A DNA stretch of 64,000 bases from a virus. Taxonomy: Duplodnaviria > Caudoviricetes. The translations under genes were made by a program, and so were the position numbers. Position 1 is the first letter of the stretch. Each line of letters starts with the position of its first letter. The notes beneath the pieces are model-generated. The model did not search any database and was not told the DNA's origin. It saw nothing but the letters and a program-made list of their open reading frames with translations. This document shows, one piece after another, positions 18,409-21,580 of the stretch. Location: positions 1-64,000 of IMG/VR virus record IMGVR_UViG_3300020050_014713. The stretch is one strand, 5' to 3'.

Positions 18409-18573
18409 CTATTGTAACTCAAAGCCCCACTGACAAACATGCCTAGCCTTAAGAGCATCCACCCCTTGAGCTATAAACCGCTCAACACACTGCAGCCTTT
18501 GCTCCCTGACAGACGACGTAGCACATCCAGATAGAATGAACAAGGGAACTAGCATAAGCATGGTTAGTCTCAC
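18409..18573 (-). CDS. small lipoprotein (54 aa, not in ORF track)
   Basis: AGGAGG-GTG; MRLTMLMLVPLFILSGCATSSVREQRLQCVERFIAQGVDALKARHVCQWGFELQ; lipobox LSGC. Confidence 0.75.
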   Translation of the reverse strand: MRLTMLMLVPLFILSGCATSSVREQRLQCVERFIAQGVDALKARHVCQWGFELQ

Positions 18574-18845
18574 AAAGCCTCCTTTATGGTGTCTATGAGT
18601 AATTCATCTTGAACAAAGCTAGTCAATTTAGGATTTTCTTGCAAATCTACGTAATGGTTACATGTGCATTGGTCTATGTTCTCGTCACAAGTACCGACTA
18701 TGCGCACCGCTGTTACTGTAAATATCTCATCGGAATCATGCATGCACATGGTGCGACCAACACAATGGTAGAAGTGGTCACCAGCATTGAAGGGATTTAG
18801 CTTAACCCGGTCCCCAACTTTAAGATTAAATTCTCCACGACGCAT
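18570..18845 (-). CDS. small SH3-like protein
   Basis: LKVGDRVKL; GGAGGT RBS. Confidence 0.6.
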   Translation of the reverse strand: MRRGEFNLKVGDRVKLNPFNAGDHFYHCVGRTMCMHDSDEIFTVTAVRIVGTCDENIDQCTCNHYVDLQENPKLTSFVQDELLIDTIKEAL

Positions 18846-18873
18846 GTTACCTCCCGACAGGTGTATTAAAGCT

Positions 18874-18901
18874 AGTGTAACAGATATTTTTGGAGAGTCA
18901 A
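18874..18901 (-). promoter_or_regulatory. early sigma70-type promoter
   Basis: TTGACT-N16-TACACT, with TG extension. Confidence 0.65.
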
Positions 18902-19153
18902 CACTTATTTATTGCGTAACTTTCCCGGCTACCTACGTGTTGCCACTAGCGTCGCAACGCATAGACGCGTAGGATGCAAGAAACTATCTATACATTTACT
19001 GGAAAATCCCCGGGCATTCAAGTTACTAACTCTTGCAAGCAACTTCTGTATGGGGAACATTCTATAACAAAGGGTATAACTGTTGAAAGAACAAGCTAAA
19101 GAAGGGGTAAGCTATTGAAAATATTCAGTAAGTTGTTTAGTAGTAAAGTAGTA

Positions 19154-19184
19154 AGGATATAAACATGTGAAAACACATTGTCAA
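19154..19184 (-). promoter_or_regulatory. sigma70-type promoter with palindromic spacer
   Basis: TTGACA, then TATATC (N17) or TATCCT (N19); spacer contains ATGTG-N4-CACAT. Confidence 0.5.
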
Positions 19185-19189
19185 CCAAG

Positions 19190-19514
19190 AAAAAAGGCAT
19201 AGCTTCGCTTACTCATAGCTACTAAATTTTTTTGCTATAAGTAGTAGAAGCGTCTTGGTTACTTTAAAATTCACCTTGACTCGTCAGGTTATTCCCCAAT
19301 ACTAGGAAGGTGTACACGAAATTCGGATTCTTCGCATACAGTGTCTTGATAGGCTTTCCGGCTAGGGCATTTAGTAGCTTCGCCCAAAGCAAGTATTGTC
19401 AGCTACGTGAGGGGCAATTTTCCCCCTACTACTCTCATCCCGTCTTGCAATCCTGTTCAACGGTATTTTTAACGGTCCTATCAATTTTCCCGAGAGATTC
19501 CATTCTCCATAGCC
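19190..19514 (-). ncRNA. candidate structured ncRNA (or structured origin)
   Basis: No long ORF; hairpins that pair fully (via G-U) only on the minus strand; 11-bp long-range helix; ends in U6. Confidence 0.5.
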
Positions 19515-19535
19515 CTAGTTAGAATCCTGTAAAAA

Positions 19536-19712
19536 TTACTTCTTTTTACGAAGTACCGTGGCATTCCCACCAGCAAATACATTCCTAGGTTTTTCAGTTT
19601 CAACTGGTTTTTTAGGATTTAAACGCTTGTGTTCCTTGCGTCGATCCGATTCAGTCTCAATTGACTCACTAGACTTATACTTGCGTGCTTTACTCCAATC
19701 CAACTTGCTCAT
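19536..19712 (-). CDS. small basic protein
   Basis: MSKLDWSKARK...; no SD evident. Confidence 0.6.
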   Translation of the reverse strand: MSKLDWSKARKYKSSESIETESDRRKEHKRLNPKKPVETEKPRNVFAGGNATVLRKKK

Positions 19713-19715
19713 AAC

Positions 19716-19727
19716 CATAGTTAGAAA
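19716..19727 (-). promoter_or_regulatory. TTTCTAACTATG box (copy 1)
   Basis: Exact 12-mer also at 46995 and 52313. Confidence 0.6.
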
Positions 19728-19791
19728 CTCAACTATTGATTTTTGGCGTTAGATAACAATCATATAGTTTTTATATACACAATCTTACCTA

Positions 19792-19820
19792 TTGTTGCGG
19801 TGTGACTATTCTGTTAACAT
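19792..19820 (+). promoter_or_regulatory. putative promoter for the recombinase
   Basis: TTGTTG-N17-TAACAT with TG extension; leader hairpin CCCAAG/CTTGGG. Confidence 0.4.
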
Positions 19821-19862
19821 GGGACTAGCCCAAGACTTCACTTGGGACACAAAGGGACTATT

Positions 19863-20426
19863 GTGATTGGATGTAAACCCCTAACCCCTACTGAAGTAGC
19901 TGATATCACTAAGCATCTAAGCTGTGCTAGGGATAAGTGTTTGTTTATATTGGGATTGCGTACGGGATTGCGTATAAGTGAATTGCTATCGCTGAAAGTC
20001 TCTAATGTGTTTTCAACGGGTTCTCTAATGCAATGTATTTATATTGAACGTAGGAATACAAAGGGTAAAACTGCTGGACGATCTATAGCGTTGCACAACG
20101 ATGCAAGAGAGGCTATAGCTAGTCTACTAGCAACTTGGGACCATAGTCCAGGGGACTGGCTATTCCAATCGTTTAGAACGCCTAATAAGCCCTTAGATCG
20201 GGTTATGGCGTACAGGATGCTACGAGAGGCTACGGATAAGGCTAAAATAGCTGGTAAAGTAGCTACGCATAGTATGCGCAAGACCTTTGCCGAACGGATG
20301 TACACTAAGCTGGATAAGGATCTACTTAAGTTACAGAAGGCTTTGGGGCATAGGGACGTTAACAGTACTATAGCCTATCTATCGTTCAATCAACAGGATA
20401 TTGACGATGCAATCTTAAGTGACTAA
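19863..20426 (+). CDS. tyrosine recombinase, catalytic domain only
   Basis: TGLRISELLSL, RRNTK, HSMRK, LGH, YL: full R-K-H-R-H-Y set; GTG start after AAGGGA. Confidence 0.95.
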   Translation: MIGCKPLTPTEVADITKHLSCARDKCLFILGLRTGLRISELLSLKVSNVFSTGSLMQCIYIERRNTKGKTAGRSIALHNDAREAIASLLATWDHSPGDWLFQSFRTPNKPLDRVMAYRMLREATDKAKIAGKVATHSMRKTFAERMYTKLDKDLLKLQKALGHRDVNSTIAYLSFNQQDIDDAILSD

Positions 20427-20503
20427 TGGTACTACGCCTAGGAGTTGAACCTAGCTTTAAGACGCTTATAAGACGCCTTCGGAATACCGTCCCGCCGCGT
20501 AGC
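20427..20503 (-). tRNA. tRNA-Ile (anticodon UAU)
   Basis: Acceptor GCTACGC/GCGTAGT, A73, encoded CCA; anticodon loop CT-TAT-AA; T-arm CTAGG-TTCAACT-CCTAG; atypical G8 and G1-U72. Confidence 0.8.
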
Positions 20504-20977: not shown

Positions 20978-21580
20978 CTAAGCGAACAAGCCGTTAATAA
21001 ATTTACCGTCCTTACGTTTAAACGCTAGCTTAGAATGATCCAGGGAGTTGGAACGCTCTTGGTCAAAGGTGCCGGTGAAGTCAGTACAGGTTACGTGAGT
21101 ACCCATGTCCGCGAGTTTACAGGAGAACAGTTCGCCGTCCTTCATGGTGATGCAAGACGTTTCGGCATAGCCGGTCAGAGAGTTATGGGCATTGCATCCG
21201 TAAATAGGCACTAGACCGTAGCCAAACACCTCAGCAAGTCCCTCGCCACGGGTATTATCAAAGTAGCGGATACGGGCATTGAACAGTTGACCACGTGTTG
21301 CAACGTGTCTAATAGCGTCCTGGACCGACTCTTCAGGGCAACGCAAGGCATGTTCTGGCAACGCTTTGGACTTCTTATAGATGCTGAATACATCCCTAGG
21401 CATATAGGCGGAGTGACCAATTGCAACGCCACGGTTATAAGTAGTTGCAATGATACGATCAAACTTATAAGTAGTCTTAGTCTCAGCAACCAAGTAACCC
21501 CAAACAACGGTAACAAAATCATAGCGTTGTTCAAGTTCGGCGTATGAGCGGGTAACGGAGAGTACTTTACGCTTAGACAT
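20978..21580 (-). CDS. hypothetical protein with possible cold-shock/OB-like C-terminal domain
   Basis: ARIRYFDNTRGEGL resembles the CSD RNP-1 region. Confidence 0.6.
   Translation of the reverse strand: MSKRKVLSVTRSYAELEQRYDFVTVVWGYLVAETKTTYKFDRIIATTYNRGVAIGHSAYMPRDVFSIYKKSKALPEHALRCPEESVQDAIRHVATRGQLFNARIRYFDNTRGEGLAEVFGYGLVPIYGCNAHNSLTGYAETSCITMKDGELFSCKLADMGTHVTCTDFTGTFDQERSNSLDHSKLAFKRKDGKFINGLFA

What the first reader, a model, noticed from the sequence alone, without database searches (positions are those of the whole stretch)
19190..19525. Second structured non-coding element (~325 nt) beside the recombinase
No ORF of note. Two hairpins pair completely only on the minus strand via G-U pairs: UGUAUGCGAAG/UUUCGUGUACA (19311-19340, 11 bp) and ACUUAUAGC/GCUAUGAGU (19211-19242). 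Long-range complements: 19217-27 with 19369-79 (11 bp), 19240-47 with 19426-33, and 19346-53 with 19477-84. These cross each other, implying pseudoknots or alternative folds. GCGAAGCU-(N0/N5)-AUGCC is repeated twice. The element ends in U6 and is preceded by ATTCTAACTAG, a variant of the recurring box. Inference: a late ncRNA or switch, or alternatively a structured ssDNA origin.
Basis: partly seen in the sequence, partly recalled or inferred. Interest (0 to 1): 0.7.

Follow-up and report, generated by a model that had tools for sequence, protein, structure and literature searches.

The report
Variable non-coding RNA slot beside recombinase
A 330-base gene-free stretch of an uncultivated 84-kb phage most likely makes a folded non-coding RNA late in infection; the stretch at the same spot in two related phages keeps its shape through compensating mutations, but this copy folds only modestly better than chance, is swapped for unrelated sequence in a near-identical phage, and its job is unknown.

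Summary
The element (19193-19525) lies in the largest gene-free gap of the window. On the minus strand it sits between a copy of the phage's late-operon box (19524-19516) and a conserved early-type promoter block (about 19184-19156). No Rfam family matches it.

- **Fold strength:** with RNA parameters the minus strand gives z -2.3, the plus strand -0.7, and DNA parameters about 0. Only three helices are well determined.
- **Closest relative:** a phage with a 97% identical recombinase carries unrelated sequence here, laid out the same way: box, small basic ORF, box, about 370 nt non-coding, same promoter.
- **More distant relatives:** two phages (recombinase 51-57% identical) have a box followed by a non-coding element. 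Those two elements share a structure with eight double-sided compensatory changes (alignment-fold z -5.9).
- **Link to the window copy:** position, the box, one junction motif and an equivalent closing helix connect it to those two. A covariance model, an HMM profile and a structure-profile distance do not.

Best reading: a late, minus-strand, fast-evolving non-coding RNA, or a structured 3' UTR, with unknown function. A single-stranded DNA origin is not supported. Interest is moderate.

The parts
19536..19727 (-). Late-type box (19727-19717) overlapping the start of a 60-aa very basic small ORF (19718-19536). This is the upstream half of the swapped cassette.
   Evidence: Box copies; ORF. The relative L003 has a 64-aa basic ORF that shares only the first 10 residues. 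The only homologue is 88% identical, on a 1.15-kb JGI contig.
19515..19525 (-). Second copy (variant) of the late-type box. It is the presumed promoter of the non-coding transcript.
   Evidence: It shares a 17-nt similarity with the box at 19726-19710 (family D2). Exact 9-mer copies head three late operons on the plus strand. A box also precedes the non-coding element in L003, L014 and L015.
19346..19484 (-). Core domain closed by an 8-bp long-range helix (19484-19477 with 19353-19346). A 9-nt junction motif lies at 19476-19468, and three weaker internal hairpins follow.
   Evidence: Helix probability is 0.95. The motif was derived from L014/L015 and occurs 3 times in 128 kb, once here. An equivalent closing helix in L014/L015 shows 3 compensatory pairs.
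19311..19340 (-). 11-bp hairpin with three G-U pairs, complete only on the minus strand.
   Evidence: mean pair probability 0.95.
19190..19251 (-). 3' long interrupted hairpin (15 bp, 14-nt loop), then 6 nt, then U6. It may be a transcript end but is not a canonical intrinsic terminator.
   Evidence: Pair probability about 1.0. It carries the strongest local fold signal, z -3.0. The terminator scan does not call it.
19156..19192 (-). Conserved early-type promoter block. It marks the left boundary of the swapped cassette and heads the roughly 300-nt leader and genes from 18845 downwards.
   Evidence: Identical apart from one base in L003, which diverges completely just upstream of it. A -35-like hexamer also ends the L014 element.
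19863..20426 (+). 187-aa tyrosine recombinase with a catalytic domain only, transcribed divergently from the element.
   Evidence: Pfam PF00589 at 1.8e-25. Xer-type and tyrosine-invertase NCBIfam models match below their cut-offs. Hundreds of homologues of about 187-194 aa exist.

Best explanation
The element is the template of a non-coding RNA of about 320 nt, read from the minus strand late in infection.

- **Start (inferred):** transcription begins a few bases downstream of the late-type box at 19524-16. Read-through from the identical box in front of the small basic ORF would make the element that mRNA's 3' UTR as well.
- **Fold (predicted):** a branched core closed by 19484-77/19353-46, then an 11-bp hairpin (19340-11), a poorly structured spacer, and a long 3' hairpin (19251-02) followed by U6.
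- **End (inferred):** most transcripts probably end there, just before the early promoter block, which keeps late and early transcription units apart.
- **Evolution (shown):** the locus is a conserved slot beside the small tyrosine recombinase, and its content evolves very fast. It is swapped as a cassette between near-identical phages. In a sister lineage it is held in shape by compensatory substitutions.
- **Function (unknown):** the pattern of a conserved slot, a strain-specific sequence and a preserved fold suits an RNA that acts by base pairing or as a specificity or decoy molecule better than a housekeeping ribozyme.
For: 1. The 690-nt gap is the largest gene-free stretch in the window. 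Its GC is 0.40, against 0.26-0.32 for the other gaps.
2. The box is enriched: 6 exact copies in the genome. It heads three late operons in gene orientation and is conserved at homologous sites in relative L002. A box precedes the non-coding element in all four variants of the locus.
3. The fold is better than shuffles only for RNA on the minus strand: -2.30, against -0.66 for the plus strand and -0.55/+0.13 with DNA parameters. G-U pairs make the main hairpins strand-specific.
4. The elements of L014 and L015 align and share a consensus structure. The column-shuffle z is -5.9 (0 of 200), and the energy is -29.6 on this strand against -19.9 on the other. In the two best helices 17 of 17 pairs are kept, with 8 double-sided changes, while slid controls pair at 32-41%. 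No ORF is shared between them.
5. Links from the window copy to that pair:
   - same position and orientation relative to the recombinase and the early promoter;
   - global alignment to L014 with z 3.4, ranking among the best 5 of 1112 genome windows;
   - a junction 9-mer defined on L014/L015 lies directly 3' of the closing-helix strand (roughly 1 in 1000 by position).
Against: - A covariance model built from L014 and L015 does not find the window element; forced onto it, it scores 3.5 bits. An nhmmer profile misses it too.
- Its structure-profile distance to L014/L015 is no better than that of random genome segments.
- The closest relative, L003, has unrelated sequence here, and its minus strand folds no better than chance (z -0.8).
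- Most of the element shows no local fold excess. A whole-element z of -2.3 would not survive a genome-wide correction.
- The 3' end is not a canonical terminator.
- There are no expression data. The box has not been shown to be a promoter.
- The identical-strain contigs give no variation with which to test pairing in this copy.
Confidence: 0.5

Rival explanations
1. There is no dedicated RNA. The stretch is filler at a mosaic junction in the phage's plastic early region. Only the flanking signals matter: the box promoter of the small ORF, the 3' hairpin acting as a stop or stabiliser, and the early promoter. The other pairings are chance.
For: The window and L003 differ as a patchwork across 19-24 kb, so replacement here is not special. 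Local fold excess is confined to the 3' hairpin. The 8-bp complements are of chance length. L003's substitute has no minus-strand fold excess. The CM, HMM and structure-distance tests fail to tie the window copy to the structured pair.
Against: Phage genomes rarely keep 300+ nt of filler, yet four variants keep 260-370 nt of ORF-free sequence behind a box. GC is higher than in the other gaps. The L014/L015 counterparts are clearly under structural constraint. The fold excess is specific to one strand and to RNA parameters.
Confidence: 0.25
2. It is a DNA-level site for the adjacent small tyrosine recombinase. This could be an attachment or resolution site, or a fim-like invertible segment bounded by the 11-bp inverted repeat 19217-27/19369-79. 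That segment carries a plus-strand promoter-like site at 19276-19303.
For: The recombinase has the size of FimB/FimE and matches the tyrosine-invertase models weakly. Gene-free DNA of 450-940 nt upstream of the recombinase is common in this clade, even where there is no box. The perfect 11-bp inverted repeat is real, and a promoter-like site lies inside it.
Against: An inverted repeat that good occurs in 3 of 40 shuffles, and no consistent flanking repeats are found in L003, L014 or L015. Three independent contigs of this strain all have the same orientation. Recombinases that are 97% identical sit beside unrelated sequence. The compensatory changes in L014/L015 indicate a folded single strand rather than duplex sites.
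Confidence: 0.1
3. It is a decayed remnant of a small late gene. The second box would be that gene's former promoter.
For: The second box duplicates the first over 17 nt, including an ATG at the same offset. Micro-ORFs of 9-22 codons follow the box in the window and in L003.
Against: No frame shows protein-like similarity. The ORF-free state is shared by four diverged variants. L014 and L015 conserve pairing, not a reading frame.
Confidence: 0.05
4. It is a structured single-stranded DNA origin or primase loading site.
For: A 7-nt sequence that I recall forms a very stable DNA mini-hairpin occurs twice here, out of 4 copies in the window. The phage encodes a primase-helicase.
Against: DNA-parameter folds are no better than shuffles. 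There are no iterons and no AT-rich tract. There is no skew feature at this position.
Confidence: 0.03

Closest known systems
Candidate structured RNAs of phages found by comparative genomics (Rfam-type motifs; survey in PMC10690425)
   Same: An intergenic, ORF-free element with its own promoter-like signal. Relatives show a consensus structure supported by compensatory changes.
   Different: It matches none of the 4227 Rfam 15 models. Only two sequences support the structure, and this copy cannot be placed in their model.
Immunity RNAs of P1/P7 (c4) and P4 (CI), from my own knowledge
   Same: Small phage RNAs whose sequence differs between otherwise near-identical phages, giving strain-specific action by base pairing.
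   Different: Those RNAs are 70-80 nt, are processed from early or immunity transcripts, and have known target sites. Here no complementary target longer than chance was found in the phage genome, and lysogeny is not shown.
phi29-family packaging RNA (pRNA), from my own knowledge
   Same: A phage RNA whose fold is kept while its sequence diverges almost beyond recognition among relatives.
   Different: pRNA belongs to protein-primed phages and is made early. This phage has a standard terminase and portal, and nothing links the element to packaging.
fim switch of E. coli (FimB/FimE plus the 314-bp fimS), from my own knowledge
   Same: A roughly 190-200-aa tyrosine recombinase with only a catalytic domain sits beside a non-coding element of about 300 bp.
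   Different: No conserved flanking inverted repeats were found, and no second orientation appears in the assemblies.
IS110/IS1111 bridge or seek RNAs (review PMC13604230)
   Same: A structured non-coding RNA encoded next to a recombinase gene, variable while the protein is conserved.
   Different: Those recombinases are of the DEDD/serine type, not tyrosine recombinases. Here the RNA is divergently oriented, and no guide-target pairing was found.

Membership tests
Any Rfam 15 family | Score at or near the family's gathering threshold | tested here: not met
   No gathering-level hit in the whole window. The only hit at E<=10 in 18500-20000 is a chance CRISPR-repeat match outside the element. 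Nothing was found in L003, L014 or L015.
Structured element of L014/L015 (defined here) | Same position: downstream of a late-type box, divergent from the small recombinase, upstream of an early-type promoter | tested here: met
Structured element of L014/L015 (defined here) | Long-range helix closing a core of about 125-140 nt, with the junction 9-mer directly after its 5' strand | tested here: met
   Helix 19484-77/19353-46 has P 0.95. The 9-mer lies at 19476-19468 and is one of 3 matches in 128 kb.
Structured element of L014/L015 (defined here) | Significant score against the covariance model or sequence profile of the family | tested here: not met
   CM R1 gives no hit at E<=10 in 6 kb and 3.5 bits when forced. 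nhmmer gives no hit. The structure-profile distance falls within the null.
Intrinsic (Rho-independent) terminator | G+C-rich stem, loop of 3-8 nt, U-run starting 0-2 nt after the stem | tested here: not met
   The scan does not call it. The loop is 14 nt and 6 nt separate the stem from the U6 run.
Fim-type invertible promoter switch | Inverted repeats flanking the segment, conserved among relatives, with both orientations present in populations | tested here: not met
   The 11-bp inverted repeat is matched by 3 of 40 shuffles. No common repeats occur in L003, L014 or L015. All three contigs have the same orientation. Sequencing reads were not available.
Iteron-type or AT-rich replication origin | Tandem direct repeats plus an AT-rich unwinding tract | tested here: not met
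   There are no tandem repeats inside 19193-19525. GC is 0.42.
Bridge-RNA-guided recombinase system | DEDD-type IS110 recombinase, with RNA loops complementary to donor and target DNA | tested here: not met
   The recombinase belongs to PF00589, the tyrosine type. No complementarity to the genome above chance was found.

The most novel reading that the evidence does not exclude
The variable RNA is the specificity partner of the adjacent tyrosine recombinase. That enzyme has no N-terminal DNA-binding domains, stays 97% identical while the RNA cassette beside it is exchanged, and keeps a non-coding neighbour across a whole clade. This would be an RNA-directed tyrosine recombinase, a kind not described in the papers I could search.
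Probability: 0.03. Interest if true: 0.9.

Novelty: new member of a known kind. Interest (0 to 1): 0.4.

Why it matters
If it is real, this is an undescribed phage RNA locus with an unusual evolutionary pattern. The slot beside a minimal tyrosine recombinase is conserved, its content is exchanged between near-identical phages, and in a sister lineage the content is held in shape by compensatory mutations. That pattern is typical of molecules involved in specificity or conflict, such as immunity, exclusion or anti-defence, and such phage RNAs are poorly sampled. At present the evidence supports a candidate only: two informative sequences for the structure, and no expression data.

Tried and rejected
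**Searches for more copies**
- Phage-database DNA search: no match.
- Single-protein locus searches in IMG/VR with the recombinase and the neighbouring ORF: nothing.
- Exact flank patterns in viral and metagenome collections: nothing.
- Recombinase-alignment scans of the viral, metagenome and genome collections gave 240 loci. None carries the element or matches the CM.
- A box + helix + motif descriptor scan of IMG/VR gave 8 chance hits.
- A second protein search seeded with the L014 recombinase found no closer relatives.
- Exact look-ups of the flanking ORFs returned only identical strains.
- The one diverged copy of this cassette type has no retrievable DNA.

**Ideas tested and dropped**
- Antisense target within the phage genome: only chance-length matches.
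- tRNA or tmRNA-like genes in the relatives' loci: none found.
- Plus-strand 70-aa ORF: no similarity to the analogous ORF in L003 and no family hit.
- Inverton: rejected as the leading idea.
- Shared 10-11-mers among the four variants: local alignment scores are at chance.
- The 7-nt mini-hairpin word is locally enriched (2 of 4 copies), but both copies belong to one 9-nt direct repeat.

Full report
**Setting**

The window is the first 64 kb of an 83.7-kb IMG/VR phage record with 121-bp terminal repeats. Genes run on the minus strand up to about 47 kb. They include DNA polymerase, primase-helicase and ribonucleotide reductase. From 47 kb onwards they run on the plus strand and include terminase, portal and capsid.

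The finding lies in a 690-nt gap (18846-19535). This is the largest gene-free stretch in the window and the second largest in the genome. Its GC is 0.40, against 0.26-0.32 for the other gaps. To its right lie three features:
- a 60-aa very basic ORF on the minus strand (19718-19536);
- a 187-aa tyrosine recombinase with only a catalytic domain on the plus strand (19863-20426);
- a tRNA-Ile(UAU) on the minus strand.

**The observation**

- The 11-bp hairpin at 19340-19311 contains three G-U pairs, so it is complete only on the minus strand.
- The 3' hairpin is longer than described, at 15 bp in two segments. Both hairpins have pairing probabilities of 0.95-1.0.
- The 8-bp pair 19484-77/19353-46 is of a length expected by chance, yet it is the best long-range helix (P 0.95).
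- The 11-bp perfect complement 19217-27/19369-79 is real. It competes with the 3' hairpin and has no weight in the nested ensemble. Inverted repeats this good occur in 3 of 40 shuffles of the gap.

Folding of the whole element:

| Parameters | Strand | z-score |
|---|---|---|
| RNA | minus | -2.30 |
| RNA | plus | -0.66 |
| DNA | minus | -0.55 |
| DNA | plus | +0.13 |

In 120-nt windows the excess is concentrated at 19160-19319, the 3' hairpin. The rest of the element is unremarkable. No Rfam family matches.

**Flanking signals**

The 9-nt core of the box that precedes the element occurs six times in the genome. Three copies head late operons on the plus strand, one lies inside the portal gene, and two are here on the minus strand. 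One of those overlaps the start of the small ORF and the other precedes the element. The two local copies are similar over 17 nt. In a relative with an 83% identical terminase, the box is conserved at the homologous late-operon heads. I read it as a late promoter element. That is an inference, because there are no expression data and I found no phage RNA polymerase among the large ORFs.

Immediately after the U6 run comes a block with a -35-like hexamer and a -10-like element. This block is almost identical in the closest relative. The 3' hairpin plus U6 does not meet standard terminator criteria.

**Relatives**

Exact look-ups gave three contigs of the same strain, all 99.9-100% identical and in the same orientation. 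The informative relatives came through recombinase homologues.

*L003/L004* have a 97% identical recombinase and flanks 93-96% identical. Window 19193-19704 is replaced by about 550 nt with no detectable similarity, but the layout is the same: box, 64-aa basic ORF sharing only its first ten residues, a box variant, about 370 ORF-free nt, then the same promoter block. The two phages differ as a patchwork over the whole 19-24 kb region, and the tRNA is absent from L003. Replacement here is therefore part of general mosaicism. L003's substitute folds no better than chance on the minus strand.

*L014 and L015* have recombinases 51-57% identical to the window's and 66-67% identical to each other. 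Both have ORF-free DNA upstream of the recombinase, with a box followed by 250-300 nt. L014 ends in a -35-like hexamer at the contig end. Evidence that these two elements are related and share a structure:
- The elements align (global z 3.7).
- RNAalifold predicts 40 pairs, 19 of them with double-sided changes.
- Column-shuffle controls give z -5.9 on this strand (energy -29.6) and -5.5 on the other strand (energy -19.9).
- In the two clearest helices all 17 pairs are kept in both sequences, with 8 double-sided changes. Slid controls pair at 32-41%.
- No reading frame is shared.

So in that lineage the slot holds a structured single-stranded element under selection.

**Is the window copy a member of that family?**

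For:
- It has the same position and orientation.
- The box lies upstream.
- Its global alignment to L014 gives z 3.4 and ranks among the five best of 1112 genome windows.
- A 9-nt junction motif defined from L014/L015 occurs three times in 128 kb, and one copy lies directly after the 5' strand of the window's closing helix.
- The base of that helix has the same sequence as in L014, by my inspection.

Against:
- The covariance model built from L014 and L015 finds only its own two sequences among 183 loci, and misses the window. Forced onto the core, it scores 3.5 bits and does not recover the helix.
- An nhmmer profile misses it.
- Its structure-profile distance to L014/L015 (31-32) lies within the null, whereas L014 against L015 gives 16.5.

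I rate homology as plausible, about 60%, but unproven.

**More distant clade members**

Contigs carrying the homologues P0004, P0007 and P0009 also have 450-940 gene-free nt upstream of the recombinase. They have no box, and some carry short tandem or direct repeats. In still more distant 85-kb phages the recombinase sits inside an array of co-directional small genes with no adjacent gap.

**Interpretation**

The best-supported reading is a late, minus-strand non-coding RNA of about 320 nt, which may also serve as the structured 3' UTR of the small-ORF mRNA. It occupies a conserved slot whose content evolves very fast. Confidence is 0.5.
- **Shown:** the anatomy, the strand-specific and RNA-specific fold excess, the cassette replacement, and the covariation in L014/L015.
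- **Inferred:** promoter activity of the box, the transcript ends, and homology of this copy with L014/L015.
- **Unknown:** function. No antisense target exists in the phage genome beyond chance-length matches.

Rivals:

| Rival | Confidence | Main reason it ranks lower |
|---|---|---|
| Mosaic filler with only the flanking signals functional | 0.25 | Four variants keep 260-370 ORF-free nt behind a box |
| DNA site or invertible switch for the recombinase | 0.10 | No conserved inverted repeats, no second orientation, identical enzymes beside unrelated DNA |
| Decayed small gene | 0.05 | No frame shows similarity; L014/L015 conserve pairing, not a reading frame |
| Single-stranded DNA origin | 0.03 | DNA-parameter folds equal shuffles; no iterons, no AT-rich tract |

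**Novelty and score**

The element is not in Rfam, and I found no description of it in the literature I could search. It belongs to a familiar kind, the candidate phage structured RNA. Support is thin, with two informative sequences and no expression data. Interest is 0.4.

The most novel reading not excluded is that the RNA supplies specificity to the domain-minimal tyrosine recombinase. I give that about 3%.

Noticed in passing
window 20427-20503: The tRNA-Ile(UAU) that abuts the recombinase stop codon is absent from the 96%-identical relative L003. There the flanks join with only about 5 nt between them. The tRNA is therefore a recent gain or loss and is unlikely to be the recombinase's obligatory site.
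   Followed up: partly
L012:1736-1768 (window 19168-19179 and 20004-20036): One short metagenome contig of the same strain ends in a junction that joins the early promoter spacer to the inside of the recombinase gene. The join is at a 12-nt inverted repeat, in inversion-like geometry. It is probably a chimeric read or assembly artefact, since such an inversion would split the recombinase gene.
   Followed up: partly
window 18846-19155: The other half of the gap is a leader of about 300 nt downstream of the conserved early-type promoter. It has a local fold excess on both strands at 18880-19000 (z -2.3 and -2.9). Its first 96 nt are 86% identical in L003.
   Followed up: partly
window 20981-21576: A 200-aa gene of unknown function is missing from L003 but has a 68%-identical homologue in L014. 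The whole 19-24 kb early region is a patchwork between close relatives.
   Followed up: partly
L179:1-504 and L176:1-545: In more distant relatives the gene-free DNA upstream of the recombinase has no late box. L179 carries four tandem copies of a roughly 11-nt unit that resembles a shortened box. L176 carries short direct repeats plus a long purine/pyrimidine-rich hairpin. These could be protein-binding arrays.
   Followed up: no
genome 80365-81914 (outside the window): Two nearly adjacent gene-free stretches (472 and 937 nt, GC 0.32) lie near the end of the record. They are candidates for the origin or packaging region.
   Followed up: no
window 19717-19736: The first box is part of a 6-8-6 inverted repeat just upstream of the small ORF. 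It is fully conserved in L003 and marks the right-hand boundary of the swapped cassette.
   Followed up: no
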